Shown: positions 718 to 23,463 of the stretch, one piece after another | Layout: the number at the start of each line of letters is the position of its first letter | Position numbering within the stretch: position 1 is the stretch's first letter | From: Thermodesulfobacteriota bacterium | GTDB taxonomy: Bacteria; Desulfobacterota; DSM-4660; Desulfatiglandales; Desulfatiglandaceae | DNA: 24,000 nucleotides | Direction of reading: 5' to 3' | NCBI GenBank assembly: GCA_034660135.1 | Contig: JAYEIR010000165.1 | Span: 16,291 to 40,290, forward strand | Position numbers and translations under genes: made by a program | The notes under the pieces: model-generated | The model's input: only the letters and a program-made list of their open reading frames with translations | Told to the model about the DNA's origin: nothing | The model's database searches: none

Positions 718-764
718 ATAAAACTATTCCATTTATGCCCTTTGTTTGCATTCTCTGTATTTTA

Positions 765-806
765 AGTTTATTGAGTTTATTGAGTTTATTGAGTTTATTG
801 AGTTTT
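765..806 (+). repeat. Tandem 9-mer (AGTTTATTG) x4 plus a partial unit in the 23S-5S spacer
   Basis: Direct reading gives AGTTTATTG at 765-773, 774-782, 783-791 and 792-800, then AGTTTT. Confidence 0.95.
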
Positions 807-1678: not shown

Positions 1679-1779
1679 GCTACTCAAAAGTTTGATTGTA
1701 ACTGGTCAGGTTACAGGTTATTAGCCTGAAGGATAATGCCGTTAGCCTATCCACCTGAGTAGAGCATTTTAAAATAGAT

Positions 1780-1823
1780 CCCTCTGTCCTTTATCCAGGT
1801 GGAAGCCATAATTAGAATTGCTG
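1780..1823 (+). repeat. Dispersed intergenic element, copy 1 (CCCTCTGTC...GGAAGCCATAATTAGAATTGCTG)
   Basis: It shares GGAAG(C/A)CA(T/C)(A/G)ATTAGAATTGCTG with 4604-4626 and 7501-7523. It also shares the upstream CCCTCTGTC box with 4590-4598. Confidence 0.85.
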
Positions 1824-2556: not shown

Positions 2557-2634
2557 ATGTTATCTGAGGAGGCAGTTTCAAAATGTTCAATTTTGCATGC
2601 CCTGTTAAATCTGCTATTATATTTAACTCGGTCC

Positions 2635-2730
2635 AAGGTCAAGGAAGGCGAAAATTTTAACCATAGGAATATTGTTGAATATTTCGATGATTAATATTTG
2701 AGCCTCATAAAGATTGGGCAAAAGTGGGCG
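2635..2730 (+). repeat. ~95-nt repeat element (family C), copy A, inside the groES-groEL spacer
   Basis: It aligns with 21180-21275. AAGGTCAAGGAA is identical (12 nt), as are ATTTTAACCA (10), AGGAATAT (8), TTGAATATTTCGA (13) and GATTAA (6). A looser AGATTG..AAAA tail follows. Confidence 0.8.
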
Positions 2731-4589: not shown

Positions 4590-4626
4590 CCCTCTGTCGA
4601 AGCGGAAGCCATGATTAGAATTGCTG
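4590..4626 (+). repeat. Dispersed intergenic element, copy 2 (CCCTCTGTC..GGAAGCCATGATTAGAATTGCTG)
   Basis: Same family as 1780-1823. It lies between the groEL terminator and the epimerase gene. Confidence 0.85.
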
Positions 4627-5876: not shown

Positions 5877-7280
5877 TCAAAAACTCACGTTTCCAGGTGT
5901 CCTTGGAAAAGGAATTACATCCCTGATATTTGAAAGGCCTGTCACGAACTGGATCAGGCGCTCAAATCCCAGTCCAAATCCAGCATGCGGGGCAGAACCA
6001 AATTTTCTCAGATCCAGGTACCACCAGTAATCATCCGGATTCAGACCCATCTCCTTAATCCGCTGCAAGAGTGTGTCGTAGTTGTCTTCTCGCTGGCTGC
6101 CACCGATAATTTCTCCGATCTTGGGCACTAACACATCCATGGCACGTACGGTCTTTTGATCTTTGTTCACTTTCATGTAAAAGGCCTTCAGGTCTTTGGG
6201 ATAATCCACCACAATTATCGGTTTTTTGAATACCTTTTCGCACAGGTACCTCTCGTGTTCAGACTGCAGATCATCCCCCCAGCTCACAGTAAATTCGAAC
6301 TTTTCATTAGCTTTTTCGAGAAATCCTACGGCTTCCGTGTATGTAATGGACTCAAAATCATGCAGGACCAAACTCTCCAGGGTCTCGATGACAGTATGAT
6401 CAATAAATCGATCAAAAAACTCAATGTCTTCTTTGCAGTTTTCCAAGACGTAACCGAAAATATGTTTTAAGAAATCAACTGCAAGACCCATATTATCCTC
6501 CAGGTCACAAAAGGCCATCTCCGGCTCAACCATCCAGAATTCCGCAAGGTGACGAGAAGTGTTTGAGTTCTCAGCCCTGAAGGTAGGACCGAAAGTATAC
6601 ACATCTCCCATAGCAAGGGCATAGATTTCTGCTTCAAGTTGCCCGCTGACGGTCAGAGTTGCGGGATCCCCGAAGAAATCCTTGGTAAAATCGGCTCTTC
6701 CATCCTTCTTGGGGATCTGATCCAGATCGAGAGTGGTCACCTTGAACATCTCCCCCGCACCCTCACAGTCACTGCCCGCAATAATGGGCGTATGGATATA
6801 GATAAAACCTCTGTCCTGAAAAAACGAATGAATGGCACAGCTCATAGCATTCCGCACCCTTGCAACCGCACTAAAAGTATTGGTCCTGGGTCTCAAATGT
6901 GCGATTGTTCGCAGGAATTCAAAGGAATGCCGTTTTTTCTGGAGTGGATAAATAGATGGATCAGCCCAGCCCAGGACCTCGATCTCCTCGGTCTTGAGCT
7001 CCACCTTTTGGCCCTTGCCCGGAGACTCGGACAAAATGCCCAAGGCCTTAATGGAACAACCTGTCTGCAATCTGATGACCTCGTCTTCATAATTAGGCAG
7101 TGTCCTGTCAGCCATGATTTGTAAACCGCTCAGACAAGATCCGTCATTAATGTCAATAAAAGAAAACCCTCCCTTGGAATCTCTCCTTGTCCTTACCCAA
7201 CCCATTACCATGAACCGGGATCCAACCTTTCCAGATGCGAGGATTTCAAAAATCCTCGTTCTTTTCAAAATCGATTTCAT
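5877..7280 (-). CDS. asnS: Asparagine--tRNA ligase
   Basis: Class II aaRS motifs are present: [30 protein letters not shown] and [13 protein letters not shown] moved the start to ATG 7278-7280 (MKSILKRT...), which has AAGGGG 7 nt upstream. The 65-codon extension in the ORF track (to 7475) runs into promoter/repeat DNA and is Cys/Arg-rich junk. Confidence 0.93.
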
Positions 7281-7470
7281 CTCAAAACCCCTTTTCTCGG
7301 CTCTTATACAGCCTGTCGAACATATTGTTATGCAAACTTTTTGACACCTATCCCTAAAAGCAAAGAGAGCTAATGTCAAGGCATTTGTCCTCGTAATTCC
7401 ACATGCTTCTGTTCGATAGCGCTTGCTTTTTAATTCCACCCGCCGCTTTATACAACACCCAAATCTTGCC

Positions 7471-7523
7471 GGCAATTCTAATTTTAACCTCTATCTAAGT
7501 GGAAGACACAATTAGAATTGCTG
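7471..7523. repeat. Complete palindromic copy of the dispersed element (copy 3)
   Basis: GCAATTCTAATT (7472-7483) is the exact reverse complement of AATTAGAATTGC (7510-7521), with a 26-nt centre. The right half matches the family-1 copies. The left half, read on the - strand (AGAGGTTAAAATTAGAATTGCC), matches the family-2 copies at 8568-8590 and 23363-23385. Confidence 0.9.
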
Positions 7524-7554
7524 AAATTTTACAAACATGTTGGACATAAAATGC

Positions 7555-8521: not shown

Positions 8522-8553
8522 GAAAATAAATTCACCTGCTGCTCCTGTCTTTC

Positions 8554-8590
8554 AGTTAGAAAGGTCTAAAGGTTAAAATTGGAATTGCTG
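8554..8590 (+). repeat. Dispersed intergenic element, copy 4 (..TTAGAAAGGTCTAAAGGTTAAAATTGGAATTGCTG)
   Basis: It matches 23347-23385 and the minus-strand arm of 7471-7523. It sits 18 nt upstream of a -35-like box. Confidence 0.85.
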
Positions 8591-8607: not shown

Positions 8608-8636
8608 TTGTCAGAACAACACTTAAGATTTATGAT
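8608..8636 (+). promoter_or_regulatory. Candidate sigma70 promoter for the COG1900 gene (TTGTCA-N17-TATGAT)
   Basis: TTGTCA lies at 8608-8613 and TATGAT at 8631-8636. The ORF-track start at 8608 is the TTG of this -35 box. Confidence 0.45.
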
Positions 8637-9861: not shown

Positions 9862-9911
9862 TTCCGATTACCAGAAACGATTCTCATTGGGAATAATGTT
9901 GAGCAGACAAT

Positions 9912-9926
9912 CAGCAATTCTAAAAC
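9912..9926 (-). repeat. Partial copy (copy 5) of the dispersed element core, reverse orientation
   Basis: CAGCAATTCTAA is the reverse complement of TTAGAATTGCTG (12 nt exact). It directly abuts a TTGACA box at 9927-9932. Confidence 0.6.
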
Positions 9927-10008
9927 TTGACAAAACAGAACGATTATATAATGTTAAAGATCCTGTTCTCTTAGAGGCCGCTTGTCAACTCTTAAACGGG
10001 GTGCCCTT

Positions 10009-10656
10009 ATGAAAGAAAATAGCAACTTTCCAGAAGACAGCAAAAATGAAGAGATTCTTGATCTTGGCTCCGAGGAAATGCCTCAAGGCGATACAACAAA
10101 TGCAAGTGGCGATTCCCCCAATGAAAAGGAGATCATTGATCTTGTCGATATTGTCGAGAAGGGGAAGCTGGTTCAAGATTCGGAATCTGATAAAACAGGC
10201 GAACTGTTTGATGAAGAGACCCTTCAAAGTCTTGAAAGAGTCCTCGATCATGAACCTGAAATGACAATATCATCTGAAGAAACAGATATCGATTTTGAAT
10301 TCCTGGAACAGGACACTGTGGGCATGACCCATGAAAAACCCGCAGAAAAAAGCAAATTTGATTTAAGCGACTTCATAGAACTTCAATCATCTGAGGCAGA
10401 TCTTGAAGTGCCGACAGCGGACATGGCGGCTGGACTTCCCATTGAAGATCTTAGCGATACACCGGATATTCCCAAAGTTGAATCCAAGGTGGAACTGGCA
10501 GGTATAACCGGGGAGAGAATTGAGGCTATCATTACCAAAGTGGTGCAGGATACTGTGGAGAGGGTAGCAAGGGAGGCCATGGCAACAGTTGCTGAGCAGG
10601 TAATTAAAGAAGCCATTGATGCGTTAAAGCAGAGCCTCGAATCTTCTCAGGATTGA
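10009..10656 (+). CDS. Highly acidic hypothetical protein with a conserved-looking C-terminal helical segment
   Basis: The ORF is long, with coding-like composition. It is very rich in D/E/S/T and low in hydrophobic residues until the C-terminal ERIEAIITKVVQDTVERVAREAMATVAEQVIKEAIDALKQSLE. The start is set at the first ATG (10009), because the ORF-track start is a TTG. A terminator follows. Confidence 0.6.
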   Translation: MKENSNFPEDSKNEEILDLGSEEMPQGDTTNASGDSPNEKEIIDLVDIVEKGKLVQDSESDKTGELFDEETLQSLERVLDHEPEMTISSEETDIDFEFLEQDTVGMTHEKPAEKSKFDLSDFIELQSSEADLEVPTADMAAGLPIEDLSDTPDIPKVESKVELAGITGERIEAIITKVVQDTVERVAREAMATVAEQVIKEAIDALKQSLESSQD

Positions 10657-14523: not shown

Positions 14524-14675
14524 AAGATGCGAAGAATCACTGCCTATCCGGGAGCAGCGCTCAGGCACTATTTAGTCCTCCCCGAACTATCAACCCCGCC
14601 ATAATAAACCACACAAAAGCAATCCGTGTTGCCTTCATTATGAAATGAGCTAAGATCGAAAACACCAACTTTGCA

Positions 14676-14704
14676 TTGACATCTGCCAGGCCCTGTTTTA
14701 CTGA
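14676..14704 (+). promoter_or_regulatory. Candidate promoter for the TolC-like gene (TTGACA-N17-TACTGA) carrying the shared 16-mer
   Basis: TTGACATCTGCCAGGC (14676-14691) matches 1908-1923 at 15 of 16 positions. The -10 box is weak. Confidence 0.3.
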
Positions 14705-14742: not shown

Positions 14743-16080
14743 ATGAAGTTTAGAGCTTCATTGATTCTCATATGTTCGGCCTTTTTCCTGTCTACAATTT
14801 ACCAAACGAGTGAGAGCTTTGCGCAAGGGACGAAGGTCTACACACTGGAAGACAGTATTGCAGAGGCCCTGGCAAATAACTGGTCTCTTAAGGCAAAGGA
14901 GGAAAAACTCAACGAAGCGGCCTTTGTCAAAGACCAGGCCAGGGCCGAATTCCTGCCCAAATTGAGCACGTCTTATGGTTATACCCTGTTGAGCAAAAAT
15001 TCGAGAATACTCAAAGCCAATATCCCTGGGATGGGGGATGAGCCAATCGAGGTAGCCGCCAAGAACAATTATCAGTGGAAAGGCACTGTGACCCAGCCCG
15101 TCTTTACCGGATTTGCCTTGAAAAGTTCTTATGAGCTTGCAAAACTCGGAGTTGACCAATCCCAGATGGAGCTTGATCTTGAAAGGCTTGACCTGATCTT
15201 TAGAGTCAAAGAGGCCTATTATGACATCCTGGAGGCGGATAAGGCCCTGGATGTGGCCGAGAAAGCCGTGGAATCCCTGGAATCTCATGCCAATACGGCG
15301 CGCAGTTTCTATGAAGTGGGTATGACTCCAATTAATGATCTCTTGAGGTCGGAAGTGGAGTTAGGTGACGCAAAGCAGGAGTTGGTAAAGGCTGAACACG
15401 ATGCTCGTATGGCCCGTTCCGTATTTAATACCATCTTGGCCAGACCGGTCAATGCACCTGCAGAGGTGGATGATAGACTGGTTTTTGTGCCGGAACGAGG
15501 GGATTTTCAAGATTACCTCCAAAAGGCCTTTACGAACCGCCCTGAAATGAAGCTCATGGAAATCAATATCCTTCAATCAGAGCAGCAGATAAGGCTGGCT
15601 AAAAGCAAATATTACCCGGAAGTATCGCTTCAATACGACTATATCAAGGCAGGGGATACGCCGAACGTCTCTGGCAGCGAATTTCACGAGGCAAGCAGTT
15701 GGGAGGCCGCTGCTGTCTGTTCATGGACTTTTTGGGAATGGGGAAAGACACATTACGCGGTAAAAGAGAAAGAAAGCATCAGAAAGCAACTGACCAAAAT
15801 CAAGGAAGATCTGGAGAATAAAATAAGGCTTGAATTGAAGCGGGCACTTTTAGTCCTGGAAGCGGCAGAAAAGAACATTCCCACTACAAAGAAAGCGGTT
15901 GAGCAGGGCGAGGAGAACTTACGCGTCAATGAGGAACGTTATCGTGCGCAGGTAACCACTTCCACCGAGGTCCTTGATGCCCAGAGGCTCCTGAGCCAGG
16001 CAAGAATGAACTACTACCATGCACTTTACGCCCACTACATGGCCAAGGCCGGATTGCAGTGGGCCATAGGGTCATATTAG
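14743..16080 (+). CDS. TolC-family outer-membrane efflux protein
   Basis: It has a signal peptide (MKFRASLILICSAFFLSTIYQTSESFAQ), a length of ~445 aa, two-fold repeated helical/coiled segments and a C-terminal Y..Y..A.A.L..A.G pattern typical of OEP/TolC proteins. This is a family-level call only. Confidence 0.8.
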   Translation: MKFRASLILICSAFFLSTIYQTSESFAQGTKVYTLEDSIAEALANNWSLKAKEEKLNEAAFVKDQARAEFLPKLSTSYGYTLLSKNSRILKANIPGMGDEPIEVAAKNNYQWKGTVTQPVFTGFALKSSYELAKLGVDQSQMELDLERLDLIFRVKEAYYDILEADKALDVAEKAVESLESHANTARSFYEVGMTPINDLLRSEVELGDAKQELVKAEHDARMARSVFNTILARPVNAPAEVDDRLVFVPERGDFQDYLQKAFTNRPEMKLMEINILQSEQQIRLAKSKYYPEVSLQYDYIKAGDTPNVSGSEFHEASSWEAAAVCSWTFWEWGKTHYAVKEKESIRKQLTKIKEDLENKIRLELKRALLVLEAAEKNIPTTKKAVEQGEENLRVNEERYRAQVTTSTEVLDAQRLLSQARMNYYHALYAHYMAKAGLQWAIGSY

Positions 16081-16237
16081 TACCTTATTTCCAGGTTTTC
16101 TGTCATGAAAAACAAGAAAATCTTTAACAGGTCGAGCAGTCGAGTGGCGAAGCTTGAAACTCGAAACCGGAGGTTTAAAGCCCAGAGTCCGACACCCGAC
16201 AACCAATAACTGATAACTGATAACTGATAACTGATAA
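16077..16237 (+). repeat. ~160-nt intergenic repeat, copy A (partner 23137-23286)
   Basis: It aligns end to end with copy B. There are 2 mismatches in the first 60 nt, then identical blocks of 31 and 24 nt. The only other differences are indels of whole 7-8-nt micro-repeat units. Confidence 0.95.
16207..16237 (+). repeat. TAACTGA heptamer direct repeat, 4 full units plus TAA
   Basis: TAACTGA occurs at 16207, 16214, 16221 and 16228, followed by TAA. The array ends 26 nt upstream of the ftsE ATG. Confidence 0.97.
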
Positions 16238-18021: not shown

Positions 18022-18053
18022 CAACCTTTGAACCTCTGAACCTTTGAACCCGT
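18022..18053 (+). repeat. Tandem 8-mer (GAACCYYT-like) x4, immediately upstream of envC
   Basis: The units are CAACCTTT, GAACCTCT, GAACCTTT and GAACCCGT at 18022-18053. The envC ATG is at 18066. Confidence 0.9.
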
Positions 18054-18065
18054 GATCGGTTACAC

Positions 18066-21146: not shown

Positions 21147-21179
21147 GTAGTGTCCGTCCAGAAATGAGATAGTTTTCGC

Positions 21180-21275
21180 AAGGTCAAGGAAAATGAGGAT
21201 TTTAACCACAGGAATATATTGAATATTTCGAGGATTAAAATCCGAATCTAACACAGAGATTGCGGAAAATAGCCA
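21180..21275 (+). repeat. ~95-nt repeat element (family C), copy B
   Basis: It aligns with 2635-2730. It contains a perfect 9-bp inverted repeat, GGATTTTAA (21198-21206) and TTAAAATCC (21234-21242). Confidence 0.8.
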
Positions 21276-23090: not shown

Positions 23091-23136
23091 ATTTTCGATT
23101 CAAAGCAAACAGGAAAAAGAGACCCCTCTGTTACTG

Positions 23137-23286
23137 TTAGCACCTTATTTCCAAGTTTTCTGTCATGAAAAACAAGAAAATCTTTAACAGGTCGAGTAAT
23201 CGAGCAGTCGAGTGGCGAAGCTTGAAACTCGAAACTGGAGGTTTAAAGCCCAGAGTCCGATAACCAATAACTGATAACTGATAACC
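23137..23286 (+). repeat. ~150-nt intergenic repeat, copy B (partner 16077-16237), ending in TAACTGA x2 plus TAACC
   Basis: See copy A. TAACTGA lies at 23268 and 23275. The array is followed by the palindrome CCGTTAACGG at 23285-23294. Confidence 0.95.
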
Positions 23287-23346
23287 GTTAACGGCCTTCA
23301 GCGTATTTTAGCTTGTCTTAGGCACTACTCTGGGTTGCGTATGGCC

Positions 23347-23385
23347 CACCTTAGTAAGGGCTAAAGGTTAAAATTAGAATTGCTG
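23347..23385 (+). repeat. Dispersed intergenic element, copy 6 (CCACCTTAGTAAGGGCTAAAGGTTAAAATTAGAATTGCTG)
   Basis: It matches 8554-8590 and the minus-strand arm of 7471-7523. It lies 79 nt upstream of the orn start. Confidence 0.85.
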
Positions 23386-23463
23386 TGAAACCTGTATTTC
23401 ACTGGCAAATCAGTTTACCTTTATGCTATATTTAAAGTTTTCAATACATACAAGGAGAATATC

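What the first reader, a model, noticed from the sequence alone, without database searches (positions are those of the whole stretch)
23347..23385. Dispersed ~40-50-nt intergenic element with invariant core AATTAGAATTGCTG at six loci in 24 kb
Copies occur at 1780-1823, 4590-4626, 7471-7523 (both arms), 8554-8590, 9912-9926 (partial, reversed) and 23347-23385. There are two half-types. Type 1 is CCCTCTGTC..GGAAGCCATAATTAGAATTGCTG. Type 2 is CTTAG.AAGG.CTAAAGGTTAAAATTAGAATTGCTG. Every copy is intergenic. Five of the six full or half copies point toward the downstream gene (groES, epimerase, ferredoxin plus asnS, COG1900, orn) and lie 20-130 nt upstream of -35-like boxes or 80-450 nt upstream of start codons. 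One copy per ~4 kb is a very high density. That fits a REP/BIME-like genome-wide repeat, a binding site for an abundant DNA-binding protein, or a promoter-upstream module. It does not fit sigma54 spacing and it is not an array.
Basis: seen in the sequence. Interest (0 to 1): 0.65.

Follow-up and report, generated by a model that had tools for sequence, protein, structure and literature searches.

The report
Tiny transposon parked upstream of promoters
The repeated AATTAGAATTGCTG motif is the end of a very small, non-coding jumping-DNA element (a MITE) that has spread through this sulfate-reducer-like genome and, unusually, sits a fixed 17-18 bases upstream of the -35 box of ordinary gene promoters.

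Summary
The 14-mer occurs 7 times in the window against 0.35 expected, always between genes.

The two "half-types" are the two ends of one element: CAGCAATTCTAATT, a variable interior, then AATTAGAATTGCTG. This is a 14-bp terminal inverted repeat (TIR). Window 7470-7523 is a complete 54-nt copy. The other copies keep only one TIR.

About 35 further complete elements from unrelated metagenomes share the TIR but have different interiors. They are flanked by 9-bp direct repeats, perfect in 7 cases. Close relatives of the window organism show filled versus empty sites, and two of the empty sites lie in this window. So this is a MITE, not a REP/BIME element and not a fixed operator.

The new point is position. 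In 24 of 71 independent element ends, a sigma70 -35 hexamer starts exactly 17-18 nt beyond the TIR (P about 3e-14), with a -10 box 17 nt further on. The empty alleles already carry that promoter. In three loci a second element entered the same 9-bp target.

My best reading is promoter-directed insertion. The main rival is retention as a promoter-upstream module. The parent transposase was not found, and nothing here is experimental.

The parts
7470..7523 (.). Complete 54-nt MITE copy in the divergent asnS / ferredoxin intergenic region. Left TIR is CGGCAATTCTAATT (7470-7483) and right TIR is AATTAGAATTGCTG (7510-7523), around a 26-nt interior.
   Evidence: The TIRs form a 13-bp stem (z = -5.0). 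It is an internally deleted version of a ~285-nt element at the orthologous site in relative L307 8042-8326.
7461..7469 (.). Left copy of the decayed 9-bp target-site duplication of the 7470-7523 element (AAATCTTGC). The right copy is 7524-7532 (AAATTTTAC).
   Evidence: 7 of 9 positions identical. The same 9-bp rule gives 9/9 matches in 7 metagenomic elements.
1778..1823 (+). One-TIR copy (TIR 1810-1823) between pcm and groES, with the TIR pointing towards groES.
   Evidence: It is conserved at the same site in L307. A possible TSD is TTAAAATAG / TTAAATTAG (8/9, weak).
4590..4626 (+). One-TIR copy (TIR 4613-4626, GATTAGAATTGCTG) just after the groEL terminator hairpin and upstream of the epimerase gene.
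   Evidence: In L307 the orthologous copy carries a 247-nt nested insertion of a different MITE family.
8545..8590 (+). One-TIR copy (TIR 8577-8590, AATTGGAATTGCTG) between the divergent cytochrome c3 and COG1900/HcyBio genes.
   Evidence: It is conserved in L307 and in L311-L314.
8608..8636 (+). Sigma70-type promoter TTGTCA-17-TATGAT of the COG1900 gene. The -35 hexamer starts exactly 17 nt after the TIR end at 8590, which is the canonical geometry of the family.
23351..23385 (+). Right part of the orn-upstream one-TIR copy (TIR 23372-23385). These are the coordinates of the finding. TGGCAA-18-TATATT follows at offset 17 (23403-23432).
23116..23140 (+). Left part of the same orn-upstream copy (AAAGAGACCCCTCTGTTACTGTTAG). 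It is separated from the right part by a 210-nt insertion (23141-23350) of another repeat family, with TTAG duplicated.
   Evidence: Relatives L315, L317 and L318 have the uninterrupted copy; coordinates.
9910..9932 (+). Empty target site: 9-mer ATCAGCAAT (9910-9918), 8-nt spacer, then TTGACA (9927-9932).
   Evidence: In L311 a ~390-nt element with the family TIRs is inserted here, with TSD ATCAGCAAT / AGCAGCAAT. Its end is 17 nt from the same TTGACA.
14659..14681 (+). Empty target site upstream of the TolC-like gene: 9-mer AAAACACCA (14659-14667), 8-nt spacer, then TTGACA (14676-14681).
   Evidence: L307/L308 carry two tandem elements here. The younger has TSD GAAATACCA / AAAATACCA, and both ends lie 17 nt from the pre-existing TTGACA.

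Best explanation
The motif is the 14-bp terminal inverted repeat (outer end CAG...; CAGCAATTCTAATT / AATTAGAATTGCTG) of a family of very small non-autonomous transposons (MITEs, 44 to ~450 nt).

Shown: the elements have TIRs and a non-coding, variable interior. They are flanked by 9-bp target-site duplications. They are present or absent at orthologous sites in close relatives. They are dense in this Thermodesulfobacteriota-like lineage, and the same TIR occurs in many unrelated metagenomes.

Inferred: a transposase encoded elsewhere binds the TIRs, makes 9-bp staggered cuts, and chooses its target relative to sigma70 promoters. The 9 bp that get duplicated lie 8-9 bp upstream of the -35 hexamer, so the inserted end comes to lie at about -54. 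The transposase would be a DDE type (an inference; no transposase was found); an IS4/IS10-like relationship is only a guess resting on the 9-bp duplication. The cue could be the -35 sequence itself, or RNA polymerase holoenzyme (sigma region 4 / alpha-CTD) bound there. Because the promoter-side copy of the target is regenerated, the site can be hit again, which builds tandem elements 9 bp apart.

After insertion the copies decay, are internally deleted, or are invaded by other MITEs. This gives the one-TIR 'half types' seen in the window.

Sub-confidences: it is a MITE, about 0.9. The promoter geometry is real, about 0.9. The geometry comes from target choice rather than from selection, about 0.55.
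For: - TIR pairs with variable interiors occur in about 35 unique elements from unrelated samples, with locus GC of 33-63%, and in MAGs labelled Anaerolineales, Desulfobacterales and Gammaproteobacteria.
- 9-bp flanking repeats are 9/9 in 7 elements, 8/9 in 1, and 7/9 in 4, including window 7470-7523.
- Filled versus empty orthologous sites: window 14659-14681 against L307, and window 9910-9932 against L311.
- Promoter geometry: TTG starts at offset 17 or 18 in 20 of 62 ends (P = 1.4e-11), and in 24 of 71 ends when relatives are added (P = 3e-14).
- Aligned on that TTG, the flanks read TTGACA, and an unselected TAxxA signal follows 17 nt later.
- 18 of 20 such ends have a same-direction ORF within 600 nt.
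- There is no enrichment for promoters in the opposite orientation. There is none among chance matches to the same TIR sequence (17-mer scan hits) in viral contigs, where 1 of 41 shows it.
- The geometry is seen across at least 7 interior subfamilies and in elements with perfect TSDs, which are young insertions.
- The empty alleles already contain the TTGACA.
- The same 9-bp target was used twice in L307, L222 and L190.
- TIRs of orthologous copies diverge by 5/84, against about 12% for their flanks, which is not significant. So there is no clear purifying selection on the TIR.
Against: - No autonomous element or transposase with these TIRs was found in any fetched locus, viral contig or plasmid.
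- Only about one third of ends, roughly 60% of elements, show the exact geometry. In the window itself only 8577-8590 fits perfectly, 7510 and 23372 fit partly, and 1810 and 4613 do not fit.
- Promoters are predicted, not mapped.
- Fixed insertions have passed through selection, so target choice and selective retention cannot be fully separated from sequence alone.
- Two targets (window 9910-9932 and L130) resemble the TIR itself, which hints at self-targeting.
- The recurrent one-TIR architecture with the shared left motif AAAGAGAYCCCTCTG is not explained.
Confidence: 0.6

Rival explanations
1. It is a MITE, but insertion is essentially random within AT-rich intergenic DNA. The 17-18-nt spacing reflects selection: only copies that place the TIR at about -54 to -67 are kept, because the TIR is bound by a transposase-derived or host protein, or changes upstream DNA shape, in a way that benefits or regulates the promoter. 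On this reading it is a mobile promoter-upstream regulatory module.
For: - The TIR centre at about -60 is near the classical class I activator position (established knowledge of CRP-type class I promoters).
- The promoter-side TIR is intact in one-TIR copies while the far TIR is missing.
- All observed insertions are fixed alleles that have passed selection.
- Copies are conserved at orthologous sites across relatives 87-96% identical.
Against: - Young elements with perfect TSDs already show the geometry.
- Re-use of exactly the same 9 bp in three loci is hard to obtain by random insertion plus selection.
- TIR divergence between orthologues is not significantly below that of the flanks.
- The TIR lies outside the UP-element window of -40 to -60.
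- There are no intermediate offsets such as 28 or 39 that would keep the same helical face.
Confidence: 0.2
2. It is a MITE whose transposase targets its own ends or TIR-like sequences (IR-targeting, as described for some IS families). The promoter association would be secondary, for example because the first copy landed near a promoter and later copies pile up beside it.
For: - Tandem elements lie exactly 9 nt apart in L307, L222 and L190.
- The targets at window 9910-9932 and in L130 look like degenerate TIRs.
Against: - It does not explain why first or solitary insertions sit 17-18 nt from the -35 hexamer in about 20 independent loci with no neighbouring TIR.
- The empty site 14659-14681 has no TIR-like sequence.
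Confidence: 0.1
3. It is a REP/BIME-like element spread by a RAYT (HUH) transposase, or a static operator motif of a global regulator. In either case it would not be a transposon with TIRs.
For: It is short, intergenic and high-copy, and the complete copy can form a hairpin.
Against: - 9-bp target-site duplications and filled/empty sites are present.
- The distance between the two TIRs varies from 16 to about 420 nt.
- One-TIR copies have no hairpin.
- The copies lie on the 5' side of genes rather than between convergent 3' ends.
- The same TIR occurs in organisms with GC from 33 to 63%.
Confidence: 0.03

Closest known systems
Prokaryotic MITEs mobilised in trans by IS transposases, e.g. MITEAba12 / ISAba12 of Acinetobacter (PMC6382973)
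   Same: Both are short non-coding elements with 14-16-bp TIRs that are the best-conserved part. Both make 9-bp target-site duplications, have many copies, are mostly intergenic, and keep intact TSDs in only a fraction of copies.
   Different: The TIR sequence is unrelated (GGCTTTGTTGCACAAA against CAGCAATTCTAATT). MITEAba12 shows only AT-rich target preference and carries its own outward promoters. Here the promoter is in the target and lies at a fixed distance. No parent IS has been identified here. Elements can be as small as 44-54 nt.
IS4-family elements of the IS10/IS50 type (own knowledge of ISfinder family traits)
   Same: Both have a 9-bp target-site duplication, short TIRs, and ends that begin C-x-G.
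   Different: No transposase was found and no significant TIR similarity was shown. IS10 has a symmetric target consensus (NGCTNAGCN) that is absent from these TSDs. The family assignment is only a guess.
Correia elements (CREE/NEMIS) of Neisseria
   Same: Both are small TIR elements in intergenic regions that are tied to promoters and gene expression.
   Different: Correia elements are 100-155 bp with 26-bp TIRs and a TA duplication, and they create promoters with their own sequence (own knowledge; cited in PMC11602168). Here the element brings no promoter. It lands beside an existing one.
REP / BIME / REPIN elements with RAYT transposases
   Same: Both are very short, abundant, extragenic repeats, and some occur as inverted pairs.
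   Different: REPs are single imperfect palindromes without target-site duplication, mostly 3' of genes. This family has TIRs around a variable interior, 9-bp TSDs and a 5' promoter-proximal location.
Eukaryotic promoter-targeting retroelements and transposons (Ty3 at Pol III start sites, Tf1 at Pol II promoters, mPing/P element 5' bias; own knowledge)
   Same: Both place insertions at or next to the transcription machinery's binding site while sparing coding sequence. Ty3 does this with nucleotide-level spacing.
   Different: They differ in enzyme class, domain of life and tethering factors. For the bacterial element the tether is only inferred.

Membership tests
MITE (non-autonomous TIR transposon) | Terminal inverted repeats at both ends | tested here: met
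   A 14-bp TIR pair is present in window 7470-7523 and in about 35 unique elements elsewhere. Four window copies retain only one TIR.
MITE (non-autonomous TIR transposon) | Target-site duplication of fixed length flanking the TIRs | tested here: met
   9-bp repeats: 9/9 in 7 elements, 8/9 in 1, and 7/9 in 4 including the window copy. Also 8/9 in two filled sites whose empty alleles are known.
MITE (non-autonomous TIR transposon) | Small size and no coding capacity | tested here: met
   Elements are 44 to ~450 nt, and no ORF is possible in the 44-78-nt forms.
MITE (non-autonomous TIR transposon) | Presence/absence polymorphism at orthologous sites (mobility) | tested here: met
   Window is empty and L307 filled at nadC-tolC. 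Window and L307 are empty and L311 filled at COG1900-hyp.
MITE (non-autonomous TIR transposon) | Autonomous partner with the same TIRs that encodes the transposase | tested here: inconclusive
   No TIR pair at IS-scale distance and no recurrent transposase-like ORF in about 130 loci. None in viral contigs. The plasmid search gave only a chance CRISPR-repeat hit. The genome itself could not be scanned.
REP/BIME (RAYT-associated) | The unit is a single imperfect palindrome (hairpin), with no target-site duplication | tested here: not met
   One-TIR copies do not fold better than shuffles, and 9-bp duplications are present.
REP/BIME (RAYT-associated) | Cognate RAYT gene flanked by the repeats | not testable with these tools
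   Only about 40 kb of this genome and 35 kb of a relative were accessible, and neither holds a transposase-like gene.
IS4 family (IS10/IS50-like) derivative | 9-bp duplication plus a DDE transposase of the IS4 type that recognises these ends | tested here: inconclusive
   The 9-bp TSD is met. No transposase was found. The IS10 target consensus is absent from the TSDs.
Sigma70 UP element | A/T-rich alpha-CTD site between about -40 and -60 | tested here: not met
   The TIR ends 17-18 nt upstream of the -35 hexamer, so it spans about -54 to -67. The intervening 17 nt show no conserved positions.
Rfam RNA families / structured RNA | Match to a curated covariance model, and transcription of the element | tested here: not met
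   Only 23S and 5S rRNA hit in the window. The elements lie upstream of the promoters they accompany.

The most novel reading that the evidence does not exclude
This would be a bacterial transposon family whose integration is guided, at single-nucleotide precision, by sigma70 promoters. The transposase would recognise the -35 hexamer, or RNA polymerase holoenzyme bound to it, and cut 8-9 bp upstream. The element would therefore colonise genomes by stacking just outside promoters without breaking genes or promoters. That is a prokaryotic counterpart of Ty3/Tf1-type promoter targeting, and a natural 'promoter-seeking' integrase.
Probability: 0.45. Interest if true: 0.8.

Novelty: new variant of a known kind. 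Interest (0 to 1): 0.62.

Why it matters
As a MITE alone this would be ordinary. What is unusual is the fixed 17-18-nt spacing to pre-existing -35 hexamers. That spacing holds across many unrelated hosts and interior subfamilies, and the same 9-bp target is re-used.

I know of no bacterial IS or MITE reported to choose targets this way, and four of the five full-text searches run (one exact-sequence, three topical) found none. The fifth surfaced only the related but distinct 'mobile promoters' concept (PMC3575422).

If target choice is the cause, three things follow:
- It shows a safe-haven strategy for transposons in compact genomes.
- It offers a possible promoter-directed integration tool.
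- It gives a free computational marker of true promoters in uncultured bacteria.

If selection is the cause instead, the element is a mobile cis-regulatory module.

In either case it explains why assemblies of this lineage break at these intergenic regions, and why its intergenic regions differ in length between close relatives.

Tried and rejected
- Sigma54, CIRCE, IHF, Fis, LexA and Fur-type site comparisons by eye gave no fit (reasoning only).
- Rfam found only rRNA, and there are no tRNAs.
- Look-ups of the window's own proteins to extend the genome failed for 4 of 5 proteins. Only relatives and a 6.9-kb Logan contig were reachable.
- The genome-contig scan with an 18-mer gave 62 loci, mostly chance. 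Only L129, L130, L131 and L133 carry paired TIR matches (complete elements in L130/L133; wider-spaced inverted TIR pairs in L129/L131).
- Viral contigs: the 14-mer and the 17-mer give chance hits only, with no promoter geometry (1 of 41), and there are no TIR pairs. I used these as a negative control.
- Plasmid BLAST gave a single hit at E = 6, which turned out to be a CRISPR repeat (ATTCTAATTATGGCATGTTGCCATTAAGAT) in a Chondrinema plasmid. I treated it as chance.
- All-vs-all clustering of ORFs near TIRs gave no recurrent transposase.
- The 224-aa ORF downstream of the TIR-like site (9982-10656) is not a recognisable transposase.
- I first read the left end of the 1778-1823 copy as a decayed TIR (9/14), and ATGGCCCACC at 23341-23350 as MITE interior. 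Both readings were dropped after comparison with relatives.
- An exact-sequence literature search returned only unrelated eukaryotic primers.
- The reading 'the promoter is part of the element' is rejected, because the empty alleles contain the TTGACA.
- The reading 'the TIR supplies an outward -35' is rejected, because the hexamer 17 nt downstream of the TIR's TTGCTG is a -35 box, not a -10 box.

Full report
OBSERVATION

The core AATTAGAATTGCTG (up to 2 mismatches) occurs 7 times in the 24-kb window, against 0.35 expected from shuffles. The positions are 1810+, 4613+, 7470-, 7510+, 8577+, 9912- and 23372+.

The window encodes the following, in order:
- the 3' end of 23S rRNA, then 5S rRNA
- pcm(-)
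- groES and groEL
- an NAD-dependent epimerase
- asnS(-)
- a 2x[4Fe-4S] ferredoxin
- a cytochrome c3(-)
- a COG1900/HcyBio protein
- a hypothetical protein
- valS, nadC, a TolC-like protein, ftsE, ftsX, an M23 peptidase, and traB
- three small or hypothetical proteins
- orn

All seven hits fall in the roughly 16% of the window that is intergenic. Gene content and the names of the best homologues point to an uncultured Thermodesulfobacteriota / Desulfobacterota organism.

ANATOMY

Window 7470-7523 is a complete 54-nt copy.

A scan of one genome per species with an 18-mer returned mostly chance hits. It did return complete elements of the same subfamily in two contigs of an Anaerolineales-labelled MAG, and inverted TIR pairs 94-210 nt apart in Gammaproteobacteria- and Desulfobacterales-labelled MAGs respectively.

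A metagenome scan for TIR pairs 20-50 nt apart gave 63 loci. Two groups of these are conserved coding-region coincidences produced by the degenerate pattern. After removing them, about 35 unique elements remain. They come from lakes, sediments, marine, soil and gut samples, with locus GC of 33-63%. The 14-bp TIR is nearly invariant, while the interior falls into at least 7 unrelated subfamilies and ranges from 16 to 50 nt.

IT IS A TRANSPOSON

The 9 bases on either side of the TIRs are direct repeats. They match 9/9 in 7 elements, 8/9 in 1, and 7/9 in 4. The last group includes the window copy (AAATCTTGC / AAATTTTAC). The chance of a 9/9 match is 4e-6 per element.

Close relatives of the window organism could be fetched through its COG1900 and hypothetical proteins:
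- L246 is the same organism (99.8% identity).
- L307/L308/L315 are about 95-96% identical and syntenic.
- L311-L314 are about 87-91% identical.

These relatives give filled and empty alleles.

First case. Between nadC and the TolC gene, the window reads ...AAAACACCA-ACTTTGCA-TTGACA... (14659-14681). L307 has two elements in tandem at this spot. The younger is a 130-nt element with variant TIRs, CAGCAATTCTCATT...AATGAGAATTGCTG. It is flanked by GAAATACCA / AAAATACCA.

Second case. Between COG1900 and the next gene, the window and L307 read ATCAGCAAT-TCTAAAAC-TTGACA (9910-9932). L311 carries a ~390-nt element there, flanked by ATCAGCAAT / AGCAGCAAT.

Third case. The 54-nt window copy at 7470-7523 corresponds to a ~285-nt element in L307. 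It is therefore an internal-deletion derivative.

A more distant relative (85% aa identity in COG1900, L247/L248) has no TIR in 32 kb. L307 has 9 TIR hits in 20.8 kb. The expansion is therefore lineage-specific.

These results meet the definition of a MITE on every point except one: no autonomous partner was found.

THE UNEXPECTED PROPERTY

Outward from the TIR ends, many flanks show a TTGACA-like hexamer at the same distance. Among 62 de-duplicated ends, TTG starts at offset 17 or 18 in 20 of them. The background rate is 2.5% per position, giving P = 1.4e-11. Hexamers matching TTGACA at 5 or 6 of 6 positions occur at these two offsets in 14 ends. Adding the relatives gives 24 of 71 ends (P = 3e-14).

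The flanks were then aligned on that TTG. The next three positions read A, C, A. An unselected T-A-x-x-A signal appears 23-27 nt downstream, which is a -10 box after a 17-nt spacer. The 17 nt between the TIR and the -35 hexamer show no conservation.

Further checks:
- 18 of the 20 ends have a same-direction ORF of at least 100 aa starting within 600 nt.
- Promoters pointing into the element are not enriched.
- 41 chance occurrences of the same 14-mer in viral contigs show the pattern only once.

In the window, the 8577-8590 copy fits exactly (TTGTCA-17-TATGAT at 8608-8636). The 7510 copy (TGGACA) and the 23372 copy (TGGCAA-18-TATATT) fit partly. The 1810 and 4613 copies do not fit.

Both empty alleles in the window already carry the TTGACA 8 nt beyond the 9-mer that is duplicated in the relatives. 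So the promoter pre-exists and is not delivered by the element.

In L307, L222 and L190, an older element end and a younger complete element are separated by exactly the 9-bp duplication. Both the older and the younger end are, or were, 17-18 nt from the same -35 hexamer. The same 9 bp were therefore used twice.

INTERPRETATION

The element end lies at about -54, and the duplicated 9 bp span about -53 to -45.

The simplest account is target choice guided by the promoter. The guide could be the -35 sequence or RNA polymerase bound to it. This account explains four things: the single-base precision, its presence in young copies with perfect duplications, its independence from the interior subfamily and the host, and the re-use of the site.

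The main rival is random insertion followed by retention of copies that put the TIR at about -60, where a bound protein could act on RNA polymerase. Orthologous TIRs differ at 5 of 84 positions between the window and L307/L315. Ungapped flanks differ at about 12%. The difference is not significant, so there is no clear evidence for selection on the TIR.

A third possibility is targeting of TIR-like sequences. Two targets suggest it, but it cannot explain solitary insertions.

REP/RAYT elements, operators, UP elements and RNA elements all fail specific tests.

WHAT REMAINS UNEXPLAINED

Four window copies and several copies in relatives retain one TIR only. In place of the second TIR they share a left-hand motif, AAAGAGAYCCCTCTG. 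That motif is homologous to the subterminal part of a different MITE family, which is found nested inside the epimerase-upstream copy of L307. These copies look like fragments of a composite master copy. How such fragments reached several loci is not clear.

The transposase family is unknown. IS4/IS10-like is a guess based only on the 9-bp duplication.

All promoter calls are computational.

The literature held here has no paper with this sequence. It has no report of a bacterial MITE or IS with this target rule. The nearest documented analogue with 9-bp duplications, MITEAba12, has unrelated TIRs and only an AT-rich target bias.

VERDICT

The finding is real. Its REP/BIME reading is wrong, and its 'promoter-upstream' reading is on the right track. 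It is a previously undescribed MITE family, so it belongs to a known kind. It has an apparently new and testable property: precise positioning 17-18 nt upstream of sigma70 -35 hexamers.

Noticed in passing
window 16077-16224 and 23137-23292 (insertion 23141-23350): This is a second repeat family (90-94% identical copies) carrying runs of GATAACT/GATAACC heptads. At 23141-23350 it is an insertion into the orn-upstream MITE copy, with TTAG duplicated, and relatives L315/L317/L318 lack it there. L307 has an extra copy between the M23 peptidase gene and traB. It is probably another small mobile element. The GATAAC runs resemble Fur-box-like hexamer repeats, but this was not tested.
   Followed up: partly
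L307 4925-5172; interior of L311 4958-5358: This is a third MITE family with long imperfect TIRs (GTAWCWGCTCAATAA...ACAGGCAYCGGGATCTCTT). It is nested inside copies of the main family, with GCGGAAGC duplicated at the L307 site. Its subterminal sequence matches the shared left motif of the one-TIR copies.
   Followed up: partly
window 2634-2713 and 21179-21257: An 80-nt sequence in the groES-groEL spacer is repeated (77-85% identity) upstream of the DUF2752 gene. L307 2967-3054 also matches the second copy. Its function is unknown; it could be a shared leader or translation-initiation region, or another repeat.
   Followed up: no
window 757-805: There are four tandem 9-nt units (GTTTATTGA) in the spacer between 23S and 5S rRNA.
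   Followed up: no
window 18023-18054: There are three tandem 8-nt units (AACCTTTG / AACCTCTG) just upstream of the M23 peptidase (EnvC-like) gene.
   Followed up: no
L306 3476-5156 (Chondrinema litorale plasmid NZ_CP111062.1): A CRISPR array next to cas3'/cas4/cas1/cas2 has the repeat ATTCTAATTATGGCATGTTGCCATTAAGAT. The repeat shares 14 nt with the MITE TIR plus its adjacent bases. The BLAST E-value was 6, so I treated it as coincidence.
   Followed up: partly
window 5877-7475 (asnS): The longest ORF (532 aa, TTG start) overlaps the left TIR by 6 nt. However, family models align only from residue 72, and relatives are called at 467-500 aa. The true start is probably near 7280, and the 532-aa gene call in public data looks over-extended.
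   Followed up: partly
L222 4831-4925; L190 8650-8760; L307 15490-15672: Tandem elements separated by exactly one 9-bp duplication show repeated insertion into the same target beside a promoter. The inverted TIRs facing each other across 9 nt form a near-perfect palindrome, which may be a deletion hotspot.
   Followed up: yes
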